Shown piece by piece: positions 17,384 to 50,035 of a DNA stretch of 64,000 nucleotides. The notes beneath the pieces are model-generated. The model searched no databases, had not been told where the DNA came from, and worked only from the letters and a program-made list of their open reading frames with translations. Source of the stretch: an uncultured Spirochaetota bacterium (GTDB lineage: Bacteria > Spirochaetota > Spirochaetia > SZUA-6 > CAVTHK01); contig CAVTHK010000001.1 of assembly GCA_963734495.1 (NCBI GenBank), forward strand, positions 736,001-800,000. Reading direction: 5' to 3'. The translations under genes were made by a program, and so were the position numbers. Within the stretch, counting starts at the first letter, position 1. Each line of letters opens with the position of its first letter.

Positions 17384-18637
17384 TCAGAACAGCCCGGTCT
17401 TCTGCTGGAGGCTCAGAAGCAGGGACACGTCGTTGCGCGCGCGGCTGTTCGTCGTGCTCGTGGGGCCGGGGTTGTTCACGTACTCTGCGCCGGCGCCAAG
17501 AACGAGGCCGGTGAGCAGCCCGAACCGGGCCTCGCCCCGCACGATATTGGCATACTTGCTGGTGTACGGAGCGCCTGCGTCTACCGAGTAATGATCGAAC
17601 ACCCATTGGAAGTCGAAAGACAGGCTGTCGATCGGCTGGAGGTTGATCGAAGAAATCACCGACCACTCGTAGCTCGAGTCGAGATCGCGGTTGGTGATGA
17701 ACCGCGACCCGACGCCCCACAGGGGAGCGTCGTACGATACCACCGCCCCCCAGAGAGCGTCGACCCGGTAGCTCACCGACGTCGGGGCGGCCGTCGTGTT
17801 GCTCGGGGAGTGCGCGACAACCGTCTTTGAGGCATTGGGGTGAGACAGGGCGGCAGCCGTGCCTCCGAAGCGCAGGCCGGCCCACCGCGTCTCGAGCTCC
17901 AGCGCGCCCTTGTGCGTCGTGATCCACGTCCCCGGGTCATACTCGAAGTCGGGGAGGGCGAGCTGGTAATCGAGGTCCGCATGCAGGTATCGGGAGAACC
18001 AGTGGGAAACCTCCAGCTCCGCCCGCGGCTCGAAGCGGTACGCGCTGGAATCGGGCATCGGCTTACTGGCCCCTGTGTAGTCGTACCTGCGGAGGGCGCC
18101 GCTCGCCTTGACGTATGATTCCGGGCGATAGAACCACGACACTCCCGCGAAACCCTTGTATCGCGTGTAGAAGATGTCGTCCGTCCAGCCGCCCCCGGCT
18201 TCGAGCTCCAGCCGGTCCAGGCCCCCGTACCACAGCGATCCGTCCACGGCCGTCCGCGACGTTCCGGGCTCGGTTCCGCCGTACCATGCCCGCACGATCA
18301 GCCCGCGGGATAGTCTGAGGGCCTTCAAGTCATCCTGGGCTTCGCGGTCGCCGGGGTCGATGGCGACGGCATTCTCAAACGCGCGCGCGGCGGCCCTGAA
18401 GTTGCGGAGCCCTCGCTGTGCCCAGGCGACCCTCTTCCACGCGGCGGCGCTCTCGCCGCCCGCCGCGATGGCCGAGGTGTAGGCCGACAGCGCGCCGGCG
18501 TAGTCGCCCTGCTCGCGCAGCAGATCCCCGCGCGCCAGGGCGTCCTGACCGGCGTTGCCGGGAGCGGGGTTGGCCTGTCCGTTGACCAGGGCGGGGACCA
18601 CGAGGAGGCAAAGCAGAGCAGAAAGGAAGCCGCGCAT
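17384..18637 (-). CDS. Signal peptide + TPR repeats + putative outer-membrane beta-barrel (YaiO/PgaA-like architecture)
   Basis: N-terminal TPR (GDYAGALSAYTSAI, AARAFENAVAIDP), alternating aromatic beta-strands, C-terminal Phe. Confidence 0.65.
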   Translation of the reverse strand: MRGFLSALLCLLVVPALVNGQANPAPGNAGQDALARGDLLREQGDYAGALSAYTSAIAAGGESAAAWKRVAWAQRGLRNFRAAARAFENAVAIDPGDREAQDDLKALRLSRGLIVRAWYGGTEPGTSRTAVDGSLWYGGLDRLELEAGGGWTDDIFYTRYKGFAGVSWFYRPESYVKASGALRRYDYTGASKPMPDSSAYRFEPRAELEVSHWFSRYLHADLDYQLALPDFEYDPGTWITTHKGALELETRWAGLRFGGTAAALSHPNASKTVVAHSPSNTTAAPTSVSYRVDALWGAVVSYDAPLWGVGSRFITNRDLDSSYEWSVISSINLQPIDSLSFDFQWVFDHYSVDAGAPYTSKYANIVRGEARFGLLTGLVLGAGAEYVNNPGPTSTTNSRARNDVSLLLSLQQKTGLF

Positions 18638-18814
18638 TTGTTACATCTCCCGGACTCACGATAGTGCACCCTGCCCCGGTTTGCAACGCAAGGCCCGGCG
18701 GCCGATGGGCTTCCGCGGCCCACAGCGCCGACGCGGCAGGTCGCTGCGTGGTATATTATGGCACGTTCCAGGGACCCACGGCTGTCTGTGCCGAGGCCGC
18801 CCGCAGGGGATGTA

Positions 18815-19762
18815 ATGAACGCATCGTTTCTCTCATTCGAAATCGTCGGGCACGCGATCGCCACCGCGACCTTCATCATCTTCCTCGTCTATGTGCTCGG
18901 GAGTCGTCGGGTGCTGCGGAGGACTACGCGCCGCGCGGCTGCCGTCTACTGGGCGCTGCTCGTGGTCGGCGCCATTGCCACCGCCACCAACCTTACGCGG
19001 CTGGTGACCGTGGTCAGGGGCGGGAGCGGGATGCCCATTTCGCTCCTGGACGTGGCTTCCGAGTACGGGACCATGATCGCCCTGAGCCTGGTCATCGTGC
19101 TCCTGATCGGGCTGAGGGTGATTGCAGAGCGCCGCGAGCTGAGGCCCTGGCGCATCCTCGTCATCGGCGCCCACCCGGACGACATCGAGATCGCCTGCGG
19201 CGCTTCGATGGCGCGCCTGCACGACAGCGGTCACATCATCTGGGGTGTCATCATGACCCAGGGGGAGCGCGGCGGCAACGTCGCGATCCGGCCGGCGGAG
19301 GCGCACAGGGGCGCGAGCTTCCTCGGCCTCGACCAGGTGAAGGTGCAGGGCTTTCCCGACACCCGCCTGTCCGAGGCGTCGACCGGCATGATCGCCGTGA
19401 TCGAGGAGCAGATCGCGTCCCTCAAGCCCGACATGATCTTCACGCACTCGTTTCACGACCTGCACCAGGACCATCGGGCCGTCCACGAGGCGACGCTCAG
19501 GGCGGCGCGCAACCACACCACGATCTTCTGCTACGAGAGCCCGTCGGTCACACCCGATTTCGCGCCGACGGTATTTGTCGACGTGAGCGAATACGTCGAC
19601 GTGAAGGTCGAGAGCATCAAGGAACACTGGGACCAGCGCGGCAAACCGTACGTGCAGGGCGAACGGGTGGAGGGCATCGCGATCTTCCGCGGCGCACAGG
19701 CCAAGCTCCGCCACGCCGAGGCCTTCGAGGTCGTCCGCGCCAACTTCGCGAGCCTCGGGTAG
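18815..19762 (+). CDS. PIG-L/LmbE family de-N-acetylase with ~3 N-terminal TM helices
   Basis: IGAHPDDIE, TQGERGG, HQDH, CYES motifs; hydrophobic N-terminal ~105 aa. Confidence 0.88.
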   Translation: MNASFLSFEIVGHAIATATFIIFLVYVLGSRRVLRRTTRRAAAVYWALLVVGAIATATNLTRLVTVVRGGSGMPISLLDVASEYGTMIALSLVIVLLIGLRVIAERRELRPWRILVIGAHPDDIEIACGASMARLHDSGHIIWGVIMTQGERGGNVAIRPAEAHRGASFLGLDQVKVQGFPDTRLSEASTGMIAVIEEQIASLKPDMIFTHSFHDLHQDHRAVHEATLRAARNHTTIFCYESPSVTPDFAPTVFVDVSEYVDVKVESIKEHWDQRGKPYVQGERVEGIAIFRGAQAKLRHAEAFEVVRANFASLG

Positions 19763-19766
19763 CGCC

Positions 19767-20633
19767 GTGGCGAGGATCCTGGTTACAGGGATCGGTGGGC
19801 CTGCCGGAAGGAACGTCGCCGCTCTGCTCGGTGCGCGAGGCCATGAAGTCGTGGGCGCGGACGCGCGAGAGGTCTCGGTGGACGGAGCTCGCTCGGTGCG
19901 CGTCCCGCTCGCGGGCGACCCGCTCTTTGTGAAAGATCTGGCGCGGGTGGCGGCGTGTGAGAGTGTGGACCTGCTCATCCCTACGGTCACGGAAGAGCTG
20001 CCGATCATCGCCGAGCGATGGAGTCTCTTCTCCCGGATTCCGGCCATGATCGGCCCCGCGGCAGCAGTTCGCACGGCCCACGACAAGTATCTGACCGCCC
20101 GCAGCCTCGCGGAGCGCGGGGTGAGCGTTCCCCGCACCTGCCTGCCGTCCGAAGTGCGCTCGCCCCGCGCGGTGGCCGATCGGCTGGGGTGGCCCTGCCT
20201 GAGCAAGCCCCGCGTCGGCCGGGGCGGCAGGGGGGTGGCGGTCTGGAAGGAGACGGACTGGACCTCGGTTGCCGCCCTGGACGACAGGTCCATCCTGCAG
20301 GAGTTCCTGCCCGGCACCGACTACTGCCCCAACCTGTTCGTCGGCAGAGCGCCCGGGTCCCGGGCGGTCGTCGTTGTGATGGAGAAGACTGAGCTCAAAG
20401 AAGGGATCGTCGGAAACGCGGTTTCCGTGCGGCGAGCGGCGGCGCCCGATGTGGCGGCCCTCGCCTCCGCGGCCGCCGCAGCGCTTGGATTCGTCGGGCC
20501 TCTCGATGTGGACGTCCGGCGGAACGCCGAAGGGAGACCGGCGGTCCTGGAGATCAACGCGCGCTTCGGGGCGAATATAGCCTTCGCCCCGGAGATCCTG
20601 GACGCGGCGCTCGCCGACTGGGGTGTCGAGTGA
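19767..20633 (+). CDS. ATP-grasp domain ligase
   Basis: ILVTGIGGPAG, IPTVTEEL, DKY, KPRVGRGGRGV, QEFLPG, LEINARFG. Confidence 0.88.
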   Translation: MARILVTGIGGPAGRNVAALLGARGHEVVGADAREVSVDGARSVRVPLAGDPLFVKDLARVAACESVDLLIPTVTEELPIIAERWSLFSRIPAMIGPAAAVRTAHDKYLTARSLAERGVSVPRTCLPSEVRSPRAVADRLGWPCLSKPRVGRGGRGVAVWKETDWTSVAALDDRSILQEFLPGTDYCPNLFVGRAPGSRAVVVVMEKTELKEGIVGNAVSVRRAAAPDVAALASAAAAALGFVGPLDVDVRRNAEGRPAVLEINARFGANIAFAPEILDAALADWGVE

Positions 20634-21856
20634 CGAATGTCCTGTTCGCGGTCTTCGCCGTCGTCTCCTTGACGTGTTTCTCCGTGGGCGTCCTCACGCT
20701 GATCTACTATCCCCTGGCCATCGCCTTCGTGCTGCGTCGCCGGCGACCGCCCGTGTTCGAGACCGGAACGCCGCTCGTCTCCATAGTCGTTCCGGCCTAC
20801 AACGAGGCAAAGGTGATCCGCGCGTGCGTGGACTCGATCCTCGCGTCTTCCTACGCGAACCGGGAGCTGATCCTTGTCGACGATGGGTCCAGGGACGGCA
20901 CACTCGCAGAGATGCGCAGATACGCCGGCACGCTCGGAGTCACGGTGATCAGCAAGGAGAACGGGGGCAAAGCCGCGGCGCTGAACTCGGGGCTCGCTCT
21001 CGCGAAGGGCGAGATCGTCGTGTTCGTCGACGCCGACGGCATCTTTGCCCCGGACACGATCACGGAGATCCTCAAAGGCTTCGAAGACGAAAAGATCGGA
21101 GCGGTGTGCGGGAGCGATTCGCCTGCGAACCTCGATACGCTTCTCTCCCGGCTGGCAAGCCTTCAGACTCACGTAGGTACGGGGTTTGCCCGACGGGCGC
21201 TCGCCCAGATTGACTGCCTGCCCATCGTGTCGGGAAACATCGGTGCATTTCGACGCAGCGTCCTCGCGCGTACCGGACCCTTCCTCGAGGGCTTCATCGG
21301 GGAGGACCTCGAGCTCACCTGGCGGGTGCACAAGGCAGGCTACGGGGTCGCGTTCCAGCCGTGGGCCAGGGTGCGCGCCGAGACTCCATCCACGCTTCGC
21401 GGGCTGTGGAAGCAGCGCGTGCGCTGGGCGCGGGGCCTGGTGCAGACCGTGCGCATCCACCGTCGGATGCTGTTCAACCCGCGGTACGGCGTCTTCGGCA
21501 TCTACCTCGGCATCAATGCGGTGAGCATGCTCCTCGTCCCCGTCCTCCAGCTCGTCTCCATCGTCATTCTCCCCATCCTCGCCGTGCAGCAGAACAGCCC
21601 GGTCCCGGTCAACACCCTCGGGATCGTCGGGTGGCTCGGTCTCGGCTTCGCTCTCGTGGCGACGCTGTTTTCGCTCGCCCTGGACAGGGCCTGGCGGGAT
21701 CTCCGCCTCGTCTACGTCACGCCCCTCTGGATCCTGTACTCGTGGTTCATGGACGCCGTCGCGCTGTGGGCCATCGTGCTCGAGCTGCGCGGCAGGAAGG
21801 CCACGTGGGATAAGCTCGAGCGGACGGGCGTGATCAGCAAGGGAACGGGCCCGTGA
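20630..21856 (+). CDS. Processive GT2 polysaccharide synthase (PgaC/IcaA-like)
   Basis: PAYNE, DDGS, GGKAAALN, DAD, GED, QRVRW; N- and C-terminal TM helices; GTGA overlap. Confidence 0.9.
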   Translation: MTNVLFAVFAVVSLTCFSVGVLTLIYYPLAIAFVLRRRRPPVFETGTPLVSIVVPAYNEAKVIRACVDSILASSYANRELILVDDGSRDGTLAEMRRYAGTLGVTVISKENGGKAAALNSGLALAKGEIVVFVDADGIFAPDTITEILKGFEDEKIGAVCGSDSPANLDTLLSRLASLQTHVGTGFARRALAQIDCLPIVSGNIGAFRRSVLARTGPFLEGFIGEDLELTWRVHKAGYGVAFQPWARVRAETPSTLRGLWKQRVRWARGLVQTVRIHRRMLFNPRYGVFGIYLGINAVSMLLVPVLQLVSIVILPILAVQQNSPVPVNTLGIVGWLGLGFALVATLFSLALDRAWRDLRLVYVTPLWILYSWFMDAVALWAIVLELRGRKATWDKLERTGVISKGTGP

Positions 21857-22938
21857 GGCACGCCGCGATAGCGCTCGCCGGCCTTCTCGTCGTGGCGTTT
21901 CGACCGCCTCTCGCCGGCTGCGACCCTGCCGGGCCCCCGATCAGGGCCGTGAGACTGGACTACAGGAACATGGCCCGCAGCCTGTCCGAGGTCGATAACC
22001 TGGAAAAGAGGATGCTCGCCGCAGGCGTGAACACTGTCGCTCTCGGCGCCGGCAGGGTGGACTGGACGTACTTCAAGTGGCGCGGGCAGCGGGGCTGGTG
22101 GTCGAGCGACGTGCGCGATACGGCAGTGGACTTCCTGGCCCGCGACGTCAAGCGCTTCGGGAAGTGGGCGGCGGTCGACGCCGTGGTCGACGTGCTGGCG
22201 CCGCGCTACATCGCCGCGCACCCAGAGGCGGCGGCAGTCTCCTGGCAGGGCGAGCGCAGCACCAGCCTCGTCAGCACCGCGCAGCTCGTTGACGGTGAGT
22301 TCGGGAACCTGCTGGTGGCCATGGTCGAGTACATAGCAGCCAACTACGCCGTCACCTCGATCTCGCTCACCGAGCTTGACTACCACCGGGAGGGCTACGG
22401 CGACGATGACAAGCTCTCGTACGCCCGGTTTACGGGCCGGACGGACTGGCCGCGCAGCGCCGACGGGACCATCAACGTCGACGACCTTTCCATCGGCGCG
22501 TGGCGTTCCTATGAGATCGGGCGTTTCGTGTCGCGGGCGGCAGCTGCGGCGCGTGCCCACGGGAGAAAGCTCTACGTCGATGTCCTGGTGCCTTGGGACC
22601 AGCTCGATCGCGGCGTAGCCTCGCACGGCCAGGACTACTCAGTGCTCCTGCAGTCGGCGGATCGGCTCATCGTGTGGGACTACTTCGGCCTGTCGGGCCA
22701 CCCGCCCGAGTACACGGTCGAGATTGCGCGCTCCCTGCGTCCGCTCGGCCCGGATCGGATCATCCTGTCCGTGGGGCTCTGGCCCCAGCAGGGCGACCCG
22801 GTCTCCCCCAGCGCGATGGGCACGGCCCTGCTGTCGGCGCGTGCCGAAGGCATTACGAACCAGTGGGTCACCCCCAGCAGGCTCTTCAGCGAAGCGCACT
22901 GGCGGGCCCTGGCCGACGTCTGGGCAAAGGCGCGCTGA
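21853..22938 (+). CDS. Putative lipoprotein, TIM-barrel glycoside-hydrolase-like (GHL10/DUF4015-like)
   Basis: Lipobox-like LAGC; GVNTVAL, ISLTELDY, GQDY, IVWDY pattern; GTGA overlap with the GT2. Confidence 0.6.
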   Translation: MRHAAIALAGLLVVAFRPPLAGCDPAGPPIRAVRLDYRNMARSLSEVDNLEKRMLAAGVNTVALGAGRVDWTYFKWRGQRGWWSSDVRDTAVDFLARDVKRFGKWAAVDAVVDVLAPRYIAAHPEAAAVSWQGERSTSLVSTAQLVDGEFGNLLVAMVEYIAANYAVTSISLTELDYHREGYGDDDKLSYARFTGRTDWPRSADGTINVDDLSIGAWRSYEIGRFVSRAAAAARAHGRKLYVDVLVPWDQLDRGVASHGQDYSVLLQSADRLIVWDYFGLSGHPPEYTVEIARSLRPLGPDRIILSVGLWPQQGDPVSPSAMGTALLSARAEGITNQWVTPSRLFSEAHWRALADVWAKAR

Positions 22939-22954: not shown

Positions 22955-23347
22955 CTATTCGATCAGGCAGTCCGCTTCGACCTCAACGAGCCACTCTTTC
23001 TGAACGAGGCCTGAGACTTCGACGAACGTCGATGCGGGGCGGATCCCTGCAAAGAACTCCCCGTGCGCCCGCGCGGCTTCCTCCCAGCGCGAGATGTCGC
23101 GCAGCATCACCCGCGTCCTCACGACGTCCGACAGCGACGCCCCGGCCTTCTCGATCGAGGCCTGAATGATCTGCAGGCACCGTCGGGTCTGCCCGTAGAC
23201 ATCCCCGGGGCACGCGACGGTACCGTCGTCGGCTATCGGGGCGGTGCCCGCGACCGCAACCCAGTTCCCGACTCGAACGGCACGGGAGAACCCGATGGGC
23301 TTCTCGTACGGTGAACCCGAAGAGATCAACCGCCTCGACATCGTCAT
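22955..23347 (-). CDS. RidA/YjgF/UK114 family protein
   Basis: SSGSPYEKPIGFSRAVRVG, VVRTR, RPAST, LVEVEADC. Confidence 0.9.
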   Translation of the reverse strand: MTMSRRLISSGSPYEKPIGFSRAVRVGNWVAVAGTAPIADDGTVACPGDVYGQTRRCLQIIQASIEKAGASLSDVVRTRVMLRDISRWEEAARAHGEFFAGIRPASTFVEVSGLVQKEWLVEVEADCLIE

Positions 23348-23528
23348 CCCTCTCCTTCCCGAGCCAATGTACGGTTTCACCAACCCGCCGGGAATCGCCG
23401 GATTCGCGGCCCTCCGGCACGCGCCGAGACCCGCGGCACCCGGCCGGAGCACCCGCGGCGGGAGATTGCGTTGCCTCGCGTCCTGGTTTACGCTCTCACG
23501 CGTGACGAGGGGAAGAAGCGCCCCTGCT

Positions 23529-25145
23529 ATGGCAATCCTCGTGCTCTTCGCTTCGGCCGCGGCCGCGGAACAGAGCTGGGACAATCACCAGAAGATCAGG
23601 TCCCTCGACGACCCGATCTACGAGTTGATCGAGACGCTGAGCCTCGAAGCGGGGCACCCTCTGCTCTCCCAGACCCCTCCGCTCACGGATGCGCGACTTC
23701 GCTCCATCCTCGATTCGATCGACCCCGACACGCTCTCGACGGCCGGGAAAGAGGCCTGGTCGATCGTTTCGAGCGAGCTGGGCGAACGGCCCATGCTGCA
23801 GGCCCCATACTTCGGTTTCTCGACGGGAGTGCGCGCAACGCCTCAGGTGGCCTGGCGAAGTGACACGGACATCCCCTGGATCAACCGCTACGCCATCCGC
23901 CCGCCCGCCCTCGTCGCCGCGGCCGAAATCTGGTTCGGCCCGTCGGTCTATGGGTACTCCGAGCTCGATCTCGCCCACGACCCCAACGCGGTGGCAGCGG
24001 CCCCCCAGGGCGGCATCGGGCTCAATCTCATCGACATCGCGGCGCGGCCAAAGGGGATCGACGTCACGTTCCCCTTCCGTGCCTTTCTGAGCGCCGGCGG
24101 CGAGTGGTGGAACCTGTCCCTGGGAAGAGACCGGATCACGCTGGGCAGCGCCGGGGAGCGCAATCTCACGATCTCGTCGAGCCCGGAGTTCTACGATTTC
24201 GGGCGCCTGAGCCTCTTTTCTCCCGATGTCGCCTACACGTTGCTCATGATCCAGCTCGAGCCTCAGCGAAACCTCTACCTGCACCGCGTAGACTTCCGCC
24301 TCGGGGGATGGATCTCGATCGGCGTCACCGGCGCCACGCTCGTGGGCGATGCGCCGCCGGAGCTGCGCTACCTCAACCCCTTCATGATGTACCACGGCTA
24401 CATCGCGTGGGACGATTACGCCGCAGGGCACGACAACGGGGTCGGAAGCGAGTCGGGCATCGAGCTCAACATCTCGCCCGCGAAGGGTCTCGACCTGTAC
24501 GGCCAGTTCCAGTTGAACGCCATGGACGACCCGGTCAAGCGGTTCTTCTGGCCGAGCCAGGTGAGCAAGATCCCCAATTCCTTCGGAGCCCTCGCGGGCT
24601 TCAAGCTCCGCCTGCCCTTTCGCGGGGATTGGCTCCTCGCCCAGGGCACCGTGGGCTACACGACACCCTTCAACTACATCCTCACCACTCCCAGGATAAG
24701 CTACGTGTACATGAGGCCGTCTCACTCCAACTACGAAGGCGGCTCCTACAGCTCCTCCTGGATTGGAATGATCGACGGCCCGGATACGATTCTCGGAACG
24801 GTTTCCGCGGGCTACGAGAGGCCGGGCCGTTTCAGCGTCAGCCTGGACGTAACGTGGCGCGCCCGGGGCGAGAATGCCGACACCTCGATCTTCGATTGGG
24901 CGTCGACGAGCACGATCAACAACTGGAACGCTCCGGATGCGCCTCCCGGGCTTTCCAAGGAAAGAACCCCCACCGGCACGCCGGAGTACTCCTTGACCGT
25001 CGGCACGCGCGCCGGCAGCAACGTGACCGAATGGATGGAGCTCGGCGGCGCGCTCTACTGGACGGGCCGGTGGAACGCCGCTCACGAATCCGGCGCCTTC
25101 GACAACTCCGTCGAGCTGGACCTCTCGGTGACGCTGCACATCTGA
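23529..25145 (+). CDS. Outer-membrane beta-barrel protein, capsule-assembly Wzi-like (start may be TTG 23466)
   Basis: Signal peptide; GRDRITLG, LYLHRVDF, ELRYLNPFMMYH, LYGQF, GPD pattern. Confidence 0.55.
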   Translation: MAILVLFASAAAAEQSWDNHQKIRSLDDPIYELIETLSLEAGHPLLSQTPPLTDARLRSILDSIDPDTLSTAGKEAWSIVSSELGERPMLQAPYFGFSTGVRATPQVAWRSDTDIPWINRYAIRPPALVAAAEIWFGPSVYGYSELDLAHDPNAVAAAPQGGIGLNLIDIAARPKGIDVTFPFRAFLSAGGEWWNLSLGRDRITLGSAGERNLTISSSPEFYDFGRLSLFSPDVAYTLLMIQLEPQRNLYLHRVDFRLGGWISIGVTGATLVGDAPPELRYLNPFMMYHGYIAWDDYAAGHDNGVGSESGIELNISPAKGLDLYGQFQLNAMDDPVKRFFWPSQVSKIPNSFGALAGFKLRLPFRGDWLLAQGTVGYTTPFNYILTTPRISYVYMRPSHSNYEGGSYSSSWIGMIDGPDTILGTVSAGYERPGRFSVSLDVTWRARGENADTSIFDWASTSTINNWNAPDAPPGLSKERTPTGTPEYSLTVGTRAGSNVTEWMELGGALYWTGRWNAAHESGAFDNSVELDLSVTLHI

Positions 25146-25161: not shown

Positions 25162-25286
25162 GTGATGCTCTCCGGGACGCCGCGCCGACACGGCGCCGCG
25201 GAGAGCACCCTATTCCTTGCCAAACGCAGTCCACTCCTCAATAATGCAGGCGTCTGGCCGACAGTCGGACCGTGCAGGGAGAGATC

Positions 25287-26678
25287 ATGGTCTGGAACTC
25301 CATCCCCGTTCTCATGATGGCCGCGATCACCGCGTATATCCTCCTGTACCATCTGACCAAGTTCCTGCTCCAGAAGGGGCTCGAAGACCTGTACTTCGCG
25401 CTCCTCTGCCTCTCGGTAATCCTCTACGACGTCTTCAGCATCGGGTTGTACGGTTCCACCGACGTCAGCGTCAGCATCGGGTGGCAGCGGGGCCAGCTCT
25501 TTTCCGTCTCGATGATCGCGACCTTCACGGTCTTCTTCATCTACCGGATCACCGAGACCAGGGTCAACGTCGTCTTTCCTCTGCTCGCCGGCGCATACGG
25601 CCTGCTGGGCCTGATGGCGTTCCTGCCCTTCGATTGGGTCCTCTCGGCGGGCGCCCCGATGATCCGGTCGTTCAGCCTGTTCTCGCTCCCTGTCCGCTAC
25701 TACGAGGCCAGGCCCGGCATGCTGATGAACGTGCTGTTCGTCGCGGTCTGCGTCGGCATGGCCTACGGCTACCGGCTCCTGTTCAGGTCCTATTCCGCGG
25801 GCAACCAGAAAGCGATGCTCCCGCTGATCATAGCGTTCACGCTGTTCTTCCTGACCAACATCTCCGACATGCTCAACGCTGTCGGGATCATACAGACCGT
25901 CTACCTGATCGAGTACTCGTTTCTGGCGCTTGCCCTGGTGATGGAGTATTCGCTCCTCAAGCAGTTCGTCGAGATGAACGACCAGGTGGAGTCGATGAAC
26001 GTCGTCCTCGAGCAGGAGGTGCAGAACAGGACCGGTCAGATCGAGACTCTGATCGGCCGGCTCAGCGAGAGGAACCGGGAGCTGGAGCAGACCAACCTCA
26101 GGCTCCAGGAGATCGCCGAGCGGGACAGCCTGACGGAGCTCCTCAACCACGCCGCCTTCCTCAGGCGTCTGCGCGAGATTCTCAACGAAGCCCGCAGGAA
26201 CCACTTCTCGTTCGCCGTGCTGATGTTCGACGTGGATTCCTTTAAGAGCCTGAACGATGCCTACGGGCACCTCGCGGGCGACGCGGTGCTCAAGCGGATA
26301 TCGGACGTGCTGCGGGGGCAGGCCAGAAGCTACGACGTCAAGTCGCGGCTTTCCGAGATCCAGGAGAACCTGCCCTTGCGCAACTACGACGTCGCGGGCA
26401 GGTACGGCGGAGACGAGTTTGCCCTGATACTCCCCTATTGCGGCGACGCGGAAGCCGAGATCGTGTGCGGGCGCGTCATCGCGAACATACACGCGGTCCG
26501 GCTGGAAGAGCACCCGGAGCTGCGAATCACGGTCAGCCTCGGCGGAACGGTGCTGCGAAAAGACACGGAATGCGAGAACGAACAGGCTCTGCTCAAGATA
26601 GCGGACCGCGAGCTCTATCGCTCGAAAACGGGGGGAAGGGACCGGTATCACATCGCGCCCTACCGGAAGGCGGAGTGA
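25287..26678 (+). CDS. Membrane-bound diguanylate cyclase (7TM sensor, coiled coil, GGDEF)
   Basis: ~7 TM helices, DSLTELLN, DVDSFKSLNDAYGHLAGD, RYGGDEF with RxxD I-site; TTGCCA-17-AATAAT upstream. Confidence 0.9.
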   Translation: MVWNSIPVLMMAAITAYILLYHLTKFLLQKGLEDLYFALLCLSVILYDVFSIGLYGSTDVSVSIGWQRGQLFSVSMIATFTVFFIYRITETRVNVVFPLLAGAYGLLGLMAFLPFDWVLSAGAPMIRSFSLFSLPVRYYEARPGMLMNVLFVAVCVGMAYGYRLLFRSYSAGNQKAMLPLIIAFTLFFLTNISDMLNAVGIIQTVYLIEYSFLALALVMEYSLLKQFVEMNDQVESMNVVLEQEVQNRTGQIETLIGRLSERNRELEQTNLRLQEIAERDSLTELLNHAAFLRRLREILNEARRNHFSFAVLMFDVDSFKSLNDAYGHLAGDAVLKRISDVLRGQARSYDVKSRLSEIQENLPLRNYDVAGRYGGDEFALILPYCGDAEAEIVCGRVIANIHAVRLEEHPELRITVSLGGTVLRKDTECENEQALLKIADRELYRSKTGGRDRYHIAPYRKAE

Positions 26679-29254: not shown

Positions 29255-31632
29255 GTGGACAAGCCGCTTTCCCCGGATCTGCTCGCAAAGATGGACGCCT
29301 GGTGGCGCGCAGCGAACTACCTCTCGGTCGGGCAGATCTACCTCTACGACAACCCGCTGCTCAGGCAGCCGCTCACGCTCCAGCACGTGAAGCCGCGGCT
29401 CCTCGGCCACTGGGGGACCACGCCGGGGTTGAACTTCATCTACGTCCACATGAACCGGCTGATAAAGCAGCTCGACCTCGACGTGATCTTCGTCACCGGT
29501 CCCGGCCACGGCGGCCCCGGGCTCGTGGCCAACACGTACCTCGAAGGGACCTACAGCGAGGTCTACTCCGACGTGTCGCAGGACGCCGAGGGCATGAAGC
29601 GCCTGTTCGCGCAGTTCTCATTCCCGGGCGGCATCCCGAGCCACGTGGCGCCCGAGACGCCGGGCTCGATCCACGAAGGCGGCGAGCTCGGCTACGCGCT
29701 CTCTCACGCCTACGGCGCCGCGTTCGACAACCCCGACCTGCTGGTCTGCTGCGTGGTCGGCGACGGCGAGGCGGAGACCGGGCCGCTCGCCACCGGCTGG
29801 CACTCCAACAAGTTCCTCAACCCGGCGCGCGACGGCGCGGTGCTGCCGATCCTCCACCTCAACGGCTACAAGATCGCCAACCCGACGATCCTCGCGCGGA
29901 TCCCCCGCGAGGAGCTGGAGGCGCTGCTCCGGGGCTACGGCCACACCCCTTACTTCGTGGAAGATGAAAATGAAGGCAGCCGCCCGGAGGTCCTTCACCA
30001 GCTCATGGCTGCCACGCTCGACCGGGCGGTCGAGGAGATCCGGCGGATCCAGGCCGAGGCGAGGGCCGGCGGGTTCACGGGCCGGCCGGCGTGGCCGATG
30101 ATCGTGCTGCGCACGCCCAAGGGCTGGACCGGGCCGAAGGAGGTGGACGGCCTGCAGACGGAAGGGTCGTGGCGATCGCACCAGGTGCCCTTTTCCGAGA
30201 TGGCCGAGAAACCGGCGCACGTCGCGCTGCTGGAGAAGTGGATGAAGAGCTACCGGCCCGAGGAGCTCTTCGACGCCGACGGGAGGCTGCGTGCCGGAGA
30301 TCGCGGAGCTCGCGCCGGCGGGCCGCAGGCGCATGGGCGCCAACCCCCACGCCAACGGCGGGCGAGCTGCTGCGCGACCTGCGGATGCCCGACTTCCGCG
30401 GCTACGCGGTGGCGGTGCCAAGGCCGGGCGGCGTCGCAGCCGAGGCGACGAGGGTGTTAGGCGGCTTCGTGCGCGACGTGCTCAAGCTGAACCAGGGGAG
30501 CCGCAACTTCCGCGTCTTCGGCCCCGACGAGACAGCCTCCAACCGCCTCGGCGCGCGTGTTCGAGGCCACGGACCGGGCGTGGGCGGCGGAGCGCCTCCC
30601 CGGCGACGACCACCTCTCGCCCGACGGCCGCGTGATGGAGGTCCTGAGCGAGCACCAGTGCCAGGGCTGGCTCGAGGGCTACCTGCTCACCGGCCGCCAC
30701 GGCCTCTTCTCGTGCTACGAGGCCTTCATCCACATCGTGGACTCGATGTTCAACCAGCACGCCAAGTGGCTCAAGGTGACGCGGCACATCCCGTGGCGGA
30801 GGCCCATCGCGTCGCTCAACTACCTGCTCACCTCGCACGTGTGGCGCCAGGACCACAACGGCTTCAGCCACCAGGACCCGGGCTTCATCGACCACGTGGT
30901 CAACAAGAAGGCCGACATCATCCGCGTCTATCTGCCCGCCGGACGCCAACACGCTGCTCTCCGTGGCCGACCACTGCCTGCGCAGCCGCAACTACGTGAA
31001 CGTCATCGTCGCGGGCAAGCAGCCCGCGCCGCAGTGGCTCGACATGGACGCCGCGGTCAAGCACTGCACCGCGGGGCTCGGCATCTGGGAGTGGGCGTCC
31101 AGCGACGGCGGCGGCGAGCCCGACGTGGTCATGGCCTGCGCCGGCGACGTGCCGACGCTCGAGACGCTCGCGGCGGTCGACCTGCTGCGCAAGCACCTGC
31201 CCGCGCTCAAGGTCCGCGTGATCAACGTCGTCGACCTGATGACGATCCAGTCGCGCTCCGAGCATCCCCACGGGCTCGACGACCGCGACTTCGACCAGCT
31301 CTTCACCAAGGACAAGCCGATCATCTTCGCCTACCACGGCTATCCGTGGCTGATCCACCGGCTCACCTACCGCCGGACCAACCACGACAACCTGCACGTG
31401 CGCGGCTACAAGGAAGAGGGGACCACGACGACGCCCTTCGACATGGTGGTGCTCAACGACCTCGACCGCTTCCACCTGTTCGCCGACGTCATCGACCGCG
31501 TGCCCGGCCTCGCGCCGCGAGGCGGCGCACCTCAAGCAGATGATCCGCGACCGGCTCATCGAGCACAAGCAGTACATCCGCCGCTACGGGCAGGACATGC
31601 CGGAGATCCGCGACTGGAAGTGGTCCTGGTAG
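29255..31632 (+). CDS. xfp: Xylulose-5-P/fructose-6-P phosphoketolase, ~5 frameshifts
   Basis: [58 protein letters not shown]; frame changes near 30290, 30360, 30555, 30940, 31520. Confidence 0.92.
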
Positions 31633-31711
31633 GGGTCGGGTCGGGCGCCGGGAGCCGGGGGTGTTCGGGCGCGTGCTGGCGCGGCGGGCGGGCCGGGTCT
31701 ATGATTCCCCC

Positions 31712-33056
31712 GTGAGCGCGTCGCCGGGCCGCGACTGTACCATTCGTTTCCCCGCGGGCTTCCTCTGGGGGGCGGCGACCGCGGCGCACCAGGTCGAGGG
31801 CGGAAACCGCTGGAACGACTGGTGGCGCTGGGAGCATCGCGCGCCCGACGTCCCGCCGACGCTGCAGAGCGGTGACGCCTGCCGCCACTGGGACCGGTAC
31901 GACGCGGACTTCGCGCCTCGCCGCCGCGGACGCGCACAACGCCCACCGCCTGTCGATCGAGTGGAGCCGCATCGAGCCCGAGCGGGGGCGCATCGAGGCG
32001 GCCGCCGTGTCGCACTACCACGACGTGTTCGCGTCGCTGCGGCGGCGCGGGCTCGCCCCGATCGTCACGCTGCTGCACTTTACGCTGCCGGCCTGGGTCG
32101 CCGACCTCGGGGGCTGGGAGGCCGCGGAGACGATCGAGCGGTACTGCGGGTTCGTGCGCTTCTGCGCCCGCGAGTACGGCGGCGAGGTCGACTGGTGGTG
32201 CACGATCAACGAGCCGGAGGTGCTGGCGTTCGAGGCCTACGTCGATGGGATCTGGCCGCCCTGCCGCCGCGACATGGACGCCGCGCTGCAGGTGATCGCG
32301 AACCAGCTCGACGCCCACCACCGCGCCTGCCGCATCCTGCACGACGAGGACCGCATCGACGCGGACGGCGACGGGCAGGCCGCGCGCGTGGGCTTCGCGA
32401 AGCACGTGGTGCAGCTCATCCCCCGGCGGCCCTGGTCGCCGCTCGACCGCCTGCGGACGAGGGTGGAGGACCGCATCTTCAACGACGCGGTGATCGAGGC
32501 GGCCGTGACCGGCAGGATCCGGCTGCGGGTCCCCGGATTCAAGGCGGTCAGGCGGGACGTGGGCGGGCGCGAGCGGAGCCTCGACTGGTTCGGGCTGAAC
32601 TACTACACACGCAGGACCGTCGACGCCACCGGCGGGAGCGGACACGCGGCGCGCGCAGGCGCGGAGGTCAACGACCTCGGCTGGGAGATCTTTCCCGCCG
32701 GCCTGGCCGCCGCCGCCGAGCGCGCCGCGTCGGCGGGCGCGCCCGTGCTCGTGACCGAGCACGGCTTCGCGGACGCCGCGGACGCGTTCCGTCCGCGGGC
32801 GCTGGTCGAGTCGCTGGCCGCGCTCGGACGCGCCATCGAGCGAGGCGCGCCGGTGCTCGGCTATCTCCACTGGACGCTGATGGACAACTTCGAGTGGGCC
32901 GAAGGCTGGCGCGCCCATTTCGGGCTCTACCGCGTCGACGCCCTCGTCGACCCGTGCGGCCGCGCCCGCACGCGCAGCGCGGACCTGCTTGCGCGCATCG
33001 CGGGATCCAACGAGATCAGCGCGGAGACCGCGGCCGAGGCAGGGACGCGGCTGTAG
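31712..33056 (+). CDS. Glycoside hydrolase family 1 (beta-glucosidase-like), frameshift near 31915
   Basis: [50 protein letters not shown]. Confidence 0.9.
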
Positions 33057-48043: not shown

Positions 48044-50035
48044 TCAACCGCAGCAGCTCCCGCGGCCGGAGCGCCGCCCGCGCCCCCGCTCGGAGCGGCC
48101 GCCCGCGCCGCCCGCGGGCGGCGGCAGGAACTCGGCGAGCGGGAACGACGCCATGTAGTAGTCGTTCGATGCGTTCCAGAGCGTGAAGCCCGAAGCGCGC
48201 GCCGCGGCCGCCCCTTCGAGCTGCACCCGCAGGTAGCGGGTGTACTCCTCGGGGGTCATCTTGAGCTCGCCGTACAGGCGGAAGGCCTGCACGTACGGTC
48301 GAATGACGCTGCGGCCCGCCACCATCGAGCTCGACCGCGTCGTGCCTTCCTGGTAGATGCGCCTGGCCCGATCGATATAGGGCAGCGCGCGCAGGAAATC
48401 CGCGGGGAAGTGCGACGGATAATACATGGGGCAGATCGCGTCGGCGTAACGGCTGACCAGGTCGATGCTCTGGCCGTTCCAGTTGCCCATGTGGTACCAC
48501 GAGTTGAAGCCGTAGAGGTCCGTGCTGATCGGCACGCTGAGGGACTCCCGCGCCTTGGCGAGGAAGCTTTCGAGCGCGTCGGAGTGGATCTGTCCCGGCT
48601 TGCGGCTGCGATAGACGATGGTCGAGAGGTCGCCGTCGGTGGGGAAGCGGATGTAGTCGAACTGGATCTCGTCGACGCCGAGCTGCTCGGCTTCCTTCGC
48701 GACGGCGATGTTGTAGTCCCAGACGGCCTCGGAATACGGGTCGACCCAGAACTCCACCTGCTGCCAGGTGACGTTCTTGTTCTCGTCCTCGCGCTTGACG
48801 AGGTTGCGCCACGGCGCGTTGCGCTCGCGGTCCCAGACCGCGTAGGCGCCGTCGCGGTAGCCGTACATCGCGCGGTCCTTGAACACGAGAATCCGCGCGA
48901 TCACGTAGACGCCGGCCTGGTGGGCCCTGTCGATGACCTGCCTCGCGTCGAACCGCCTGCGCACGACCCCCAACGCCTTCGGCATCTCGAGGGCCGAGTC
49001 GTAGGCCAGGATCCCGTCGTCGTCCTTGAAGTCGATCACGACGCTGTTCAGGCCCTGCATCTTGACCCAGGCGAGCAGCTCGTCGAAGCGGGCTCTGCCG
49101 GCCGTGAACGACGAGACGTAGATCCCGGTGCGGTTCGCGGCGCGGGCGATCCTCGCCTCGCGGGCGGGGTCGCGCCGGGGCGCCTGCCGCGCCGCCGCCG
49201 CGAGCCGCTGCCACCCCGCTGCCCCGTACTGCCACACCGCGCTGTCGGTCACGACGTGCAGCTCGCCGCTCGCGTCGTACCGCAACACCCGGATGTTCTC
49301 CCCCGCGGCGGCGCCGGGGAACGCCAGGTCGGTGTAGGTTTCCCGGTTCGCGGAGGAGCGGTAGATCCCGTAGCCGAAGTCGAGCCCGATGGTGATGACG
49401 CCGGGCTGGGACGGGTCGTAGCTGATGCCGGCGACCTCCTCGAAGAAGTGGGCGCCCCTGTCGAGAAAGCGCGCCTTGGACGAGGGATCGGTCCAGGTGC
49501 GGCCCCGGTCGGTGGTCTCGTAGAAGCCGTCGAACGAGGTGCCGATCAGGAAGCCATCATGGTTCGACGGCGAGAGGGCGACCGCGGTCAGGTAGCTCAC
49601 CCAGCCCGGCGTCCCCGGCTTGCGCTCGCCTTCGGCGACCGTGGAGACGCGCGACCAGGTGCGGCCCGCGTCCTCCGAGACGTAGAGGTCGCCGGGCGTG
49701 GTGACGGCCACGCGGGCGGGATCGACGGGGTCGACCCCGACCGAGGTCAGCGGCCGCAGCGACTGCTCGGCGGCGAACGGAAAGATCACCTTGCGGGGCA
49801 GCCCGGCGTCGCGAAGCTCCCAGCTTGCCCCGCCGTCGGTGGAAACCGTGAACCCGCGTTCCTCCGAGATGCCGTAGATCGTGCCATCGGCTGCGACGAC
49901 GGCCTTTTCGGGCGCGAACACCGGGGGCGGCGCCGAATCGCGCTGGTCGCGGACCTCGGGGTTCGCCGTGCTCTGCGAGGCGACCGCGATGCTGATGCAG
50001 AAGGCTATGAGACCTGCGAGGCGGATGCTGAACAT
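48044..50035 (-). CDS. Secreted BNR/beta-propeller + DUF4015-type putative glycoside hydrolase
   Basis: S.D.G.TW Asp-boxes; NSVVIDFKDDDG, IARILVFKD, WVDPY, DEIQFDYIRFP, PMYYPSHF, RPYVQAF. Confidence 0.85.
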   Translation of the reverse strand: MFSIRLAGLIAFCISIAVASQSTANPEVRDQRDSAPPPVFAPEKAVVAADGTIYGISEERGFTVSTDGGASWELRDAGLPRKVIFPFAAEQSLRPLTSVGVDPVDPARVAVTTPGDLYVSEDAGRTWSRVSTVAEGERKPGTPGWVSYLTAVALSPSNHDGFLIGTSFDGFYETTDRGRTWTDPSSKARFLDRGAHFFEEVAGISYDPSQPGVITIGLDFGYGIYRSSANRETYTDLAFPGAAAGENIRVLRYDASGELHVVTDSAVWQYGAAGWQRLAAAARQAPRRDPAREARIARAANRTGIYVSSFTAGRARFDELLAWVKMQGLNSVVIDFKDDDGILAYDSALEMPKALGVVRRRFDARQVIDRAHQAGVYVIARILVFKDRAMYGYRDGAYAVWDRERNAPWRNLVKREDENKNVTWQQVEFWVDPYSEAVWDYNIAVAKEAEQLGVDEIQFDYIRFPTDGDLSTIVYRSRKPGQIHSDALESFLAKARESLSVPISTDLYGFNSWYHMGNWNGQSIDLVSRYADAICPMYYPSHFPADFLRALPYIDRARRIYQEGTTRSSSMVAGRSVIRPYVQAFRLYGELKMTPEEYTRYLRVQLEGAAAARASGFTLWNASNDYYMASFPLAEFLPPPAGGAGGRSERGRGRRSGRGSCCG

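What the first reader, a model, noticed from the sequence alone, without database searches (positions are those of the whole stretch)
17384..22938. Candidate synthase-dependent exopolysaccharide system with a deacetylase + ATP-grasp tailoring module
Seen: four tightly coupled genes (4-nt gap, then two GTGA overlaps) encode a TM-anchored PIG-L de-N-acetylase, an ATP-grasp ligase, a processive GT2 (D,D,D,QRVRW) and a lipoprotein TIM-barrel hydrolase-like protein. A TPR + beta-barrel gene is divergently transcribed. Known: synthase + periplasmic hydrolase + TPR/porin is the layout of the Pga (PNAG), Bcs and Pel systems, but Pga and Pel deacetylate with periplasmic CE4-type domains, and I know of no ATP-grasp partner in them. 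No PgaD/IcaD partner or PilZ domain is evident here. Inference: a HexNAc polymer or its nucleotide-sugar precursor is de-N-acetylated on the cytoplasmic side and the freed amine re-acylated with an amino acid or other carboxylate, giving a chemically new surface glycan.
Basis: partly seen in the sequence, partly recalled or inferred. Interest (0 to 1): 0.82.

Follow-up and report, generated by a model that had tools for sequence, protein, structure and literature searches.

The report
Undescribed sugar-polymer export gene cassette
These five genes look like a machine that builds and exports a sugar polymer, and it seems to strip the usual acetyl group off the amino sugar inside the cell and attach a different chemical group in its place, which would give a cell-surface material that we could not find described.

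Summary
The five genes form a conserved synthase-dependent exopolysaccharide cassette. The divergent gene models as TPR plus a 16-stranded barrel (best matches PelB, PgaA, BcsC). The last gene models as a TIM barrel closest to PgaB GH153 and Cwp19. The GT2 forms its own clade apart from PgaC/IcaA and lacks their QxxEY motif.

In the 80 best ATP-grasp-seeded metagenome loci, PIG-L lies directly upstream in 69 of 69 testable and the GT2 directly downstream in 56 of 56. The barrel occurs in 11 of 11 complete diderm loci and 0 of 13 Chloroflexota/archaeal ones. The cassette is broad but rare (0 of 300 further genomes in each of two phyla). Topology puts the PIG-L domain in the cytoplasm.

Best mechanism (inferred, about 0.55): a HexNAc precursor is de-N-acetylated, re-acylated using ATP, then polymerised. 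Acyl donor and linkage are unknown. E. coli yaiSPXO has parallel logic with an acyltransferase instead. I found no paper describing the system in an open-access library. The scan noted this system earlier on other DNA (e1-2790704). Cultured hosts exist, including Methanosarcina acetivorans and Arthrobacter.

The parts
17384..18637 (-). Outer-membrane exporter: signal-peptide-like N-terminus, about 2.5 TPR repeats, 16-stranded beta-barrel (PelB/PgaA/BcsC-like fold)
   Evidence: Pfam TPR; AlphaFold2 model pLDDT 90.7 with 16 long strands from residue 113 to 413; best fold matches PelB 9h80 Z 19.6 (rmsd 4.6, 314 aligned), PgaA 4y25 Z 16.1, BcsC 9b8h Z 15.0 (Foldseek top hit also PelB)
18638..18814 (.). 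177-bp divergent intergenic region (presumed promoters)
   Evidence: Sequence; no sigma-70 consensus site and no Rfam match in the window; function inferred
18815..19762 (+). PIG-L/LmbE-family metal-dependent de-N-acylase with three N-terminal TM helices; catalytic domain predicted cytoplasmic
   Evidence: PF02585; H120-P-D122-D123 and H217-x-D219-H220 invariant in 25 of 25 rows; TM 10-28, 42-60, 86-104 and positive-inside charge pattern
19767..20633 (+). ATP-grasp ligase of the PRK12767 / 2PN1 type with a PylC-like N-terminal domain; no signal peptide
   Evidence: PF02655, best NCBIfam NF009402 94.5 bits, under its cut-off of 218; D106-K107, K147, E262-x-N264-x-R266 invariant in 26 of 26; best PDB match 2pn1 E 1e-24; PF21360 in 14 of 26 members
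20630..21856 (+). Processive membrane GT2 synthase of its own clade; QxxEY motif replaced, invariant H181; no PilZ domain
   Evidence: TIGR03937 183.6 bits, cut-off 422.3; trees; motif counts; four hydrophobic segments
21853..22938 (+). Exported (beta/alpha)8 glycoside-hydrolase-like protein of a family without a Pfam model; fold closest to PgaB GH153 and Cwp19 (GHL10); probable catalytic E174
   Evidence: No Pfam or NCBIfam hit; model pLDDT 95.1; 6au1 Z 28.3 (rmsd 3.2, 315 aligned) tied with 5oq2 Z 27.8; Foldseek ranks 1-8 all PgaB; E174 in 108 of 108 near and 76 of 84 distant homologues

Best explanation
A synthase-dependent exopolysaccharide system with a cytoplasmic N-acyl-swapping module. 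Step 1 (inferred): the membrane-tethered, cytoplasm-facing PIG-L enzyme removes the acetyl group from a HexNAc precursor, most likely UDP-GlcNAc (UDP-GalNAc or HexNAc-1-phosphate are possible). Step 2 (inferred): the ATP-grasp enzyme activates a small carboxylate from central metabolism (an amino acid or organic acid; no donor-making gene is in the cassette) and joins it to the freed 2-amine. Step 3 (fold and motifs shown, substrate inferred): the GT2 polymerises the re-acylated sugar, alone or mixed with GlcNAc, and threads the chain through the inner membrane; the three TM helices of the deacetylase may serve as the co-polymerase partner that PgaD, BcsB or Alg44 provide elsewhere. Step 4 (fold shown, role by analogy): the exported TIM-barrel enzyme trims or clears polymer. 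Step 5 (fold and distribution shown): the TPR-barrel carries it across the outer membrane in diderms and is dropped in monoderms and archaea. Confidence that it is a synthase-dependent polysaccharide system is about 0.9; the figure given is for the full acyl-swap mechanism.
For: Linkage: hydrolase-seeded, 24 of 35 genome loci hold PIG-L, ATP-grasp, GT2 and hydrolase, 7 are cut by contig ends but consistent, 3 are lone hydrolase copies in genomes that hold a full cassette elsewhere, 1 lacks PIG-L. ATP-grasp-seeded (best 80 of 333): PIG-L upstream 69 of 69 testable, GT2 downstream 56 of 56, hydrolase 32 of 37. The pair survives gene-order change and two fusions (GT2-hydrolase; TPR-TM-PIG-L) in L021-L035. 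Exporter tracks the outer membrane: 11 of 11 complete diderm loci, one by a divergent homologue (hhalign 98%), and 0 of 13 Chloroflexota/archaeal loci; Omp85 found in G003-G005 and not in G001-G002. Both enzymes keep their catalytic residues. Cytoplasmic side: mean K+R vs D+E is 5.4 vs 0.3 in loop 1, 1.1 vs 3.2 in loop 2, 2.8 vs 0.8 after TM3 over 25 rows; 8 of 25 rows carry a signal-like start and TPRs before TM1; L095 and L106 encode the PIG-L with no TM or signal segment. The synthase's IF1 helix differs from GlcNAc polymerases: E and Y of QxxEY in 0 of 34, H181 in 34 of 34. E. coli yaiS-yaiP-yaiX-yaiO pairs a 40%-identical PIG-L and a GT2 with a GlmU-like acyltransferase and a barrel, an independent case of deacetylase plus acyl-adding enzyme beside a synthase. 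Precedents: PylC joins a carboxylate to a primary amine (PMC3941956 passages); Cj1438C is an ATP-grasp that amidates a capsule sugar (PMC11800379 passages).
Against: No activity, substrate or polymer has been measured. L019 has ATP-grasp, GT2 and two hydrolases but no PIG-L in 3.1 kb upstream, and its genome gave only a weak 28% PIG-L hit (a MAG of unknown completeness). No conserved gene for an acyl donor, carrier or nucleotide-sugar enzyme was found among recurring neighbours, so the donor is unconstrained. Loss of QxxEY could also mean a non-acetamido sugar or another linkage; BcsA and YaiP lack it too. In 4 of the 5 loci lacking the TIM hydrolase a GH16-like protein stands nearby, which does not point to a beta-1,6 PNAG-like backbone. 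The TM segment shows no similarity to PgaD and is absent in L095 and L106, so the co-polymerase idea is weak. The PRK12767-type ligases have no characterised member among the PDB hits.
Confidence: 0.55

Rival explanations
1. The two enzymes act on different groups. PIG-L yields free glucosamine residues (a chitosan-like or dPNAG-like polymer deacetylated at precursor level), while the ATP-grasp amidates a sugar carboxylate (uronic acid) with a small amine, as Cj1438C does, or closes an amide between the freed amine and a uronate.
For: Cj1438C precedent. L019 keeps the ligase without a close PIG-L. The hydrolase groove has invariant or near-invariant arginines R68 and R218, which would suit an acidic polymer. 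The GT2 lacks QxxEY.
Against: No UDP-sugar dehydrogenase or amine-making gene recurs beside the cassette. Cj1438C is a TupA-like fold, whereas this ligase is PRK12767/PylC-like. PIG-L and ligase are adjacent in 69 of 69 testable loci.
Confidence: 0.15
2. The module modifies only a primer, a lipid-linked first sugar or the chain end (as NodB/NodA do for NodC products, or PIG-L for GlcNAc-PI), giving an anchor or terminator; the bulk of the chain is an ordinary beta-glycan.
For: The deacetylase is membrane-tethered in most loci. nodABC is a GT2 plus deacetylase plus acyltransferase operon. A processive synthase shields its chain, so only the ends or precursors are reachable from the cytoplasm (established knowledge).
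Against: Soluble PIG-L in L095 and L106. No initiating transferase or flippase recurs. A hydrolase plus TPR-porin implies a long polymer. The synthase's IF1 helix is remodelled in all 34 members, which fits a changed repeating unit better than a changed end.
Confidence: 0.15
3. The ligase and the PIG-L enzyme are a forward and reverse pair: the ligase adds an acyl group to an amino sugar or small molecule and the PIG-L enzyme removes it (as Mca does for mycothiol conjugates; recalled), setting the degree of substitution or switching the synthase on and off in place of c-di-GMP.
For: PIG-L/LmbE enzymes include amidases: weak hits to Mca and MshB models. No PilZ, PgaD or conserved cyclase in the cassette.
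Against: The best family match is the GlcNAc deacetylase BshB1 (76.6 bits vs 22.3 for Mca), and PDB hits are GlcNAc de-N-acetylases. An unconditioned source of free amino sugar would be needed.
Confidence: 0.08
4. An ordinary, divergent PNAG (Pga/Ica) system with incidental neighbours.
For: Best NCBIfam model is PgaC/IcaA; hydrolase fold closest to PgaB; barrel similar to PgaA.
Against: Score is under half the cut-off; the GT2 is outside the PgaC/IcaA clade; no PgaD in the genome (83% complete); no CE4 domain in any of the five proteins; GH153 residues not kept; ligase and PIG-L are constant partners.
Confidence: 0.03

Closest known systems
PgaABCD / IcaADBC (PNAG)
   Same: Processive GT2 without PilZ, periplasmic TIM-barrel hydrolase of the PgaB fold, TPR plus 16-stranded porin.
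   Different: GT2 in a separate clade without QxxEY; no PgaD/IcaD; no periplasmic CE4 deacetylase; cytoplasm-facing PIG-L and an ATP-grasp instead; GH153 H-D pair reads T-E.
Pel, Bcs and alginate synthase-dependent systems
   Same: Synthase, TPR scaffold, hydrolase and porin, the common traits listed in PMC8892547 (passages); exporter fold closest to PelB; loss of the porin in monoderms.
   Different: Their listed tailoring (O-acetylation, phosphoethanolamine, CE4 deacetylation) happens after the inner membrane; no c-di-GMP module is conserved here; no ATP-grasp or PIG-L appears in the main text of the operon survey PMC7112194.
E. coli yaiS-yaiP-yaiX-yaiO (annotated as putative; no functional paper in the 6 listed)
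   Same: PIG-L deacetylase (40-41% identical to this one), GT2, an acyl-adding enzyme and an outer-membrane barrel in one operon.
   Different: YaiX is a GlmU-like acyltransferase, not an ATP-grasp; YaiP is a separate long branch (30% identity) and YaiO does not match this barrel family; no hydrolase gene in the two loci viewed. Parallel logic, not the same family.
GH18-CE4-GT2 and CE4-GT2 fusion synthases (Bacillus, Sphingomonas, Streptomyces and others)
   Same: Nearest GT2 group in the second tree (99.6/98); 31-35% identity over the full length.
   Different: They keep QxxEY and carry the deacetylase as a fused domain (annotated as polysaccharide deacetylase for L132; the GH18/CE4 labels for the others are recalled from length and type); no ligase beside them in the six loci viewed.
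NodABC; LpxC/LpxD; P. aeruginosa DnpA (proposed)
   Same: De-N-acetylate then re-N-acylate an amino sugar on the cytoplasmic side. For DnpA a PIG-L enzyme plus 'an unknown ligase or transferase' adding L-Ala is speculated (PMC10579960 passages).
   Different: They make a signal, lipid A or LPS core and use acyltransferases; none exports a long polymer through a synthase and porin.
PylC and C. jejuni Cj1438C (ATP-grasp amide ligases)
   Same: ATP-dependent amide formation; PylC-like N-terminal domain in 14 of 26 members; Cj1438C acts on a surface polysaccharide.
   Different: PylC joins two amino acids; Cj1438C is TupA-like and uses the sugar's carboxylate in an ABC-type capsule pathway (pathway type recalled).

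Membership tests
Synthase-dependent exopolysaccharide systems | Processive membrane GT with D,D,D,QxxRW and TM segments | tested here: met
   Motifs at 84, 134, 225 and 262; four hydrophobic segments
Synthase-dependent exopolysaccharide systems | TPR scaffold and outer-membrane barrel in diderms | tested here: met
   11 of 11 complete diderm loci and 0 of 13 Chloroflexota/archaeal loci
Synthase-dependent exopolysaccharide systems | Periplasmic or surface hydrolase/lyase | tested here: met
   Fold and conserved acid; activity not tested
Synthase-dependent exopolysaccharide systems | Inner-membrane co-polymerase subunit | tested here: inconclusive
   No PgaD; the 3-TM part of the PIG-L protein is a candidate but does not match PgaD and is missing in L095 and L106
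Synthase-dependent exopolysaccharide systems | c-di-GMP sensing module | tested here: inconclusive
   No PilZ or GGDEF in the five proteins; GGDEF genes lie near the cassette in the window, L001, L023 and L100 but are not conserved; composite sites cannot be seen by these tools
Synthase-dependent exopolysaccharide systems | A secreted polymer is actually made | not testable with these tools
   Needs expression and chemistry
Pga/Ica PNAG system | GT2 is a PgaC/IcaA orthologue | tested here: not met
   183.6 bits vs cut-off 422.3; separate clades
Pga/Ica PNAG system | PgaD/IcaD partner | tested here: not met
   None in the cassette; PF13994 not found in G000, 83% complete, while the control found it in E. 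coli
Pga/Ica PNAG system | Extracytoplasmic CE4 deacetylase (PgaB N-domain / IcaB) | tested here: not met
   No polysaccharide-deacetylase family in the five proteins or among the 27 recurring neighbours scanned
GH153 (PgaB C-terminal domain) | (beta/alpha)8 fold with PgaB-like architecture | tested here: met
   Z 28.3, rmsd 3.2, 315 aligned, tied with Cwp19
GH153 (PgaB C-terminal domain) | D326, D328, H473, D474 (B. bronchiseptica numbering; PMC5933820) | tested here: not met
   By strand register, inferred and not from a residue-level superposition: H-D reads T173-E174 (97 and 108 of 108); the first Asp of the D-x-D pair is R34 in 99 of 108 near homologues and G, S, N or A in distant ones. 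No significant sequence match to E. coli PgaB
PIG-L/LmbE de-N-acetylases | H-x-D-D and H-x-D-H metal/catalytic motifs | tested here: met
   Invariant in 25 of 25; aligned to 1uan, 2ixd and 8bgn
ATP-grasp ligases | ATP-binding lysines and C-terminal E-x-N-x-R | tested here: met
   K107, K147, E262, N264, R266 invariant in 26 of 26; PF02655 in 26 of 26
E. coli YaiSPXO-type locus | YaiP-type GT2, YaiX acyltransferase and YaiO barrel | tested here: not met
   YaiP outside the clade; YaiO no match to the barrel profile; no acyltransferase here

The most novel reading that the evidence does not exclude
The cassette makes a homopolymer or copolymer of N-aminoacyl (or other non-acetyl N-acyl) hexosamine. 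A PIG-L enzyme and an ATP-grasp ligase build a new nucleotide sugar in the cytoplasm, a remodelled GT2 accepts it, and the same four-gene core works in diderm bacteria, monoderm bacteria and methanogenic archaea, adding a porin only where an outer membrane exists. E. coli yaiSPXO would be a convergent version using an acyltransferase.
Probability: 0.4. Interest if true: 0.85.

Novelty: new variant of a known kind. Interest (0 to 1): 0.7.

Why it matters
Few synthase-dependent polysaccharide systems are characterised, and their described decorations are added after the chain leaves the synthase. This cassette would add a family that changes the amide on the sugar itself, inside the cell, with an ATP-dependent ligase. 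It would supply a chemically new biofilm or capsule polymer, a new glycoside hydrolase family, and a first substrate for the PRK12767-type ATP-grasp proteins whose distant relatives sit in other polysaccharide loci. It would also be an archaeal example of such a machine. It is directly testable: named records place it in Methanosarcina acetivorans and in Arthrobacter/Paenarthrobacter, and it suggests a function for the unexplained E. coli yai operon.

Tried and rejected
Sequence searches of the hydrolase against PDB found nothing significant, and profile comparison with E. coli PgaB was not significant; only the fold links them. An apparent Asp-to-Arg charge reversal at R34 held in near homologues (99 of 108) but not in the wider family, so I dropped it as a family-wide argument. 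The 3-TM segment does not match PgaD. The 'Eubacteriales' locus with a porin looked like an exception, but its genome has Omp85, once on the same contig. The Herminiimonas locus looked porin-less until a divergent homologue was found. No Rfam family, tRNA or sigma-70 promoter consensus. No complex prediction was obtained, so contact between ligase and deacetylase is untested. Neighbour clustering found no donor, carrier, transporter or regulator conserved across phyla (27 representatives of the larger clusters scanned). 'Widespread' was tested and must be qualified: 2 of 41 genomes among the host's relatives including its own, 4 of 59 in the Methanosarcina-genus sample, 0 of 300 further Chloroflexota genomes, 0 of 300 further genomes of the host phylum (only 6-8 candidates per genome were scored in the phylum searches). 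Paper searches found no description; searches were for precedents. HasA, CrdS and glycolipid synthases were not in the trees; L122 was dropped from the first tree, L121 was not recovered by the script, and only 12 cassette rows plus the query were used in the second.

Full report
Observation. Family scans give TPR, PIG-L, ATP-grasp and GT2, and nothing for the last gene. Each part is single-copy in the host genome G000 (83% complete). The nearest relatives come from Spirochaetia, so the host is probably a spirochaete (inference).

The two uncertain ends. The divergent gene, folded from a 52-sequence alignment, gives TPR helices and 16 long strands (pLDDT 90.7). Among 48,161 chains its best match is the Pel exporter PelB (Z 19.6, rmsd 4.6, 314 aligned), then PgaA (16.1), CymA (15.6) and BcsC (15.0); Foldseek also ranks PelB first. 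The last gene, folded from 108 sequences (pLDDT 95.1), is a TIM barrel closest to the PgaB GH153 domain (Z 28.3), tied with Cwp19 (27.8). It has no significant sequence match to PgaB. By strand register, the GH153 H-D pair, whose Asp is the proposed catalytic acid (PMC5933820, passages and section 13), reads T173-E174, with E174 in 108 of 108 near and 76 of 84 distant homologues; the amine-site aspartates are not kept. The mapping of B. bronchiseptica numbers onto E. coli PgaB is my inference. So it works like PgaB by fold but is not a GH153 member. The family has 104 clusters at 50% identity with E up to 1e-30.

Linkage. Seeding with the hydrolase gave 35 genome loci. Of these, 24 hold PIG-L, ATP-grasp, GT2 and hydrolase, 7 are cut by contig ends but consistent, 3 are lone hydrolase copies in genomes with a full cassette elsewhere, and 1 (L019) lacks the PIG-L. 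The reciprocal test, seeded with the ligase, returned 333 metagenome matches, of which the best 80 were kept. PIG-L lies directly upstream in 69 of 69 with enough sequence, the GT2 directly downstream in 56 of 56, and the hydrolase in 32 of 37. The lower 253 matches were not seen, and many loci are close kin, so the counts are not independent. Two layouts exist: PIG-L, ligase, GT2, hydrolase (Spirochaetia, Chloroflexota, methanogens, Arthrobacter L037), and ligase, porin, TPR-TM-PIG-L fusion, GT2-hydrolase fusion (Deltaproteobacteria, Aminicenantes, Nitrospirae). No other gene recurs across phyla.

A natural control. The porin is present in 11 of 11 complete diderm loci, one by a divergent homologue, and in 0 of 13 complete Chloroflexota and archaeal loci, five of which have a flank under 2 kb on one side. 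Whole-genome checks agree for the two monoderm genomes tested: no full-length barrel and no Omp85 in G001 and G002. This is what an exporter of the cassette's product should do.

Distribution. Broad but rare: 2 of 41 among the host's relatives (not found in a 99%-complete genome of the same genus), 4 of 59 in the genus of L007, 0 of 300 further Chloroflexota and 0 of 300 further genomes of the host phylum. This fits a horizontally moved accessory cassette (inference; I did not test donors). Named records put the hydrolase and ligase at AAM05847.1 and AAM05849.1 in Methanosarcina acetivorans (the records between and beyond were not checked) and the hydrolase in Paenarthrobacter isolates.

The synthase. 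Its best model is PgaC/IcaA at 184 bits against a cut-off of 422; glycolipid-type models score 33-50 and MftF 110. In a 45-row tree the 34 cassette GT2s form one group (99/95) apart from PgaC/IcaA (100/100) and the CE4-fused synthases; a 26-row tree gives SH-aLRT 89 and bootstrap 95 for the group and places the CE4-fused synthases plus a haloarchaeal GT2 next to it. Outgroup branches are long. The QxxEY motif, a chitin synthase signature on helix IF1 (PMC12653383, passages) and recognisable in PgaC, IcaA, NodC and the fused synthases, is replaced: E and Y in 0 of 34, H181 in 34 of 34. That suggests a different sugar or substituent, but does not name it. No PgaD was found.

The tailoring pair. 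The PIG-L protein keeps both metal motifs in 25 of 25 rows; its best models and structures are GlcNAc de-N-acetylases. Three TM helices with a strongly basic first loop, an acidic second loop and a basic segment after TM3 give N-out, catalytic domain in. The fused forms put a signal-like start and TPRs before TM1, and L095 and L106 encode the enzyme without TM or signal segment; all three lines point to the cytoplasm. The ligase keeps its ATP-grasp residues in 26 of 26, is closest to the uncharacterised 2PN1/PRK12767 group and often hits the PylC-like N-terminal domain (14 of 26). PylC condenses 3-methylornithine with a lysine amine (PMC3941956, passages). Distant relatives at about 28-35% lie beside glycosyltransferases and sugar-nucleotide enzymes in three plasmid loci viewed.

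Mechanism. A processive synthase hides its chain from the cytoplasm (established knowledge), so cytoplasmic enzymes most simply act on the precursor. One enzyme frees an amine and its constant neighbour forms amides, and the synthase's sugar-binding helix has changed. I therefore favour de-N-acetylation of UDP-HexNAc, ATP-dependent re-acylation and polymerisation of the new sugar (0.55). Shown: folds, motifs, linkage, topology by prediction, porin distribution. Inferred: every substrate and the order of steps. Against: L019 lacks a close PIG-L; no donor gene exists; and 4 of the 5 loci without the TIM hydrolase carry a GH16-like protein with an E-x-D-I-E motif (Pfam GH16 only marginally, in 1 of 4 scanned), so the linkage need not be beta-1,6.

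An independent parallel. After Arthrobacter, the closest plasmid hits of the PIG-L domain are E. coli proteins at about 40% lying in a four-gene unit of PIG-L, GT2, acetyltransferase and YaiO barrel, the yaiS-yaiP-yaiX-yaiO locus, whose yaiX is IS2-interrupted in K-12. YaiX resembles the amino-sugar N-acetyltransferase domain of archaeal GlmU. YaiP and YaiO are not members of this cassette's families. A related deacetylase thus sits twice beside a synthase with an acyl-adding enzyme of different fold, which supports the remove-and-replace logic without proving it. The six papers naming two or more yai genes are genome, promoter or screen papers (search listing only).

What is known. The common traits of synthase-dependent systems (PMC8892547, passages) are met except for a clear co-polymerase and a c-di-GMP sensor. 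Searches for the combination found no description. The operon survey PMC7112194 has no ATP-grasp, PIG-L, LmbE or ligase in its main text (word search only; supplements not read), and the held first 300,000 of 525,587 characters of a 2026 review have no ATP-grasp or PIG-L. Precedents for the separate halves are Cj1438C (PMC11800379, passages) and the speculated DnpA step (PMC10579960, passages). The library lacks most subscription journals, so absence from print is not established. The scan noted the fused layout earlier on another genome (e1-2790704); I recovered that layout independently in L021-L035 and qualify its word 'widespread'.

Verdict. A real, conserved and apparently undescribed variant of the synthase-dependent kind, with a tailoring module not found in the described members. 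Chemistry unproven. Interest 0.7.

Noticed in passing
L143:4070-8617 (E. coli K-12 yaiO-yaiX-yaiP-yaiS) and L142:6959-10165 (intact-looking plasmid copy beside an EAL gene): PIG-L, GT2, GlmU-like acyltransferase and outer-membrane barrel form a second, apparently uncharacterised synthase-like unit; yaiX is interrupted by IS2 in K-12.
   Followed up: partly
L048:11372-12181, L049, L051:5678-6364, L095:794-1522, L106:472-1200: A secreted GH16-like protein (E-x-D-I-E motif) stands beside cassettes that lack the TIM hydrolase; L095 and L106 also have a soluble PIG-L and a small secreted protein of about 105 aa between the two.
   Followed up: partly
L002, L004, L012, L014, L015, L018, L019, L055 and others: Chloroflexota-type loci often carry two or three copies of the hydrolase domain, in tandem genes or within one protein; L047 has two PIG-L genes and L057 two GT2 genes.
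   Followed up: no
window 25272-26678; L001:3211-5397; L100:3354-5540; L023:686-2830: Membrane-bound GGDEF genes lie near the cassette in several diderm loci, directly after the porin in L001 and L100; a c-di-GMP link is possible but not conserved.
   Followed up: partly
window 23244-25145: A 633-aa exported protein without Pfam or NCBIfam hit follows the cassette on the same strand after about 300 bp (start uncertain); it may be an outer-membrane protein. It was not among the recurring neighbours.
   Followed up: no
window 29255-31712: A phosphoketolase gene appears in pieces (XFP N-terminal and C-terminal domains in separate frames); a frameshift or an assembly error.
   Followed up: no
window 48047-50035: A DUF4015 putative glycoside hydrolase next to an NAD-dependent epimerase gene, 25 kb from the cassette; no evidence of a link.
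   Followed up: no
L029 (G004): A record titled Eubacteriales carries the porin and Omp85 genes, and its GT2 is sister to an Aminicenantes one (100/99); a diderm lineage or a mislabelled or mixed bin.
   Followed up: partly
L010, L015, L063, L064, L071, L112: Cassette genes are split by frameshifts, probably sequencing errors.
   Followed up: no
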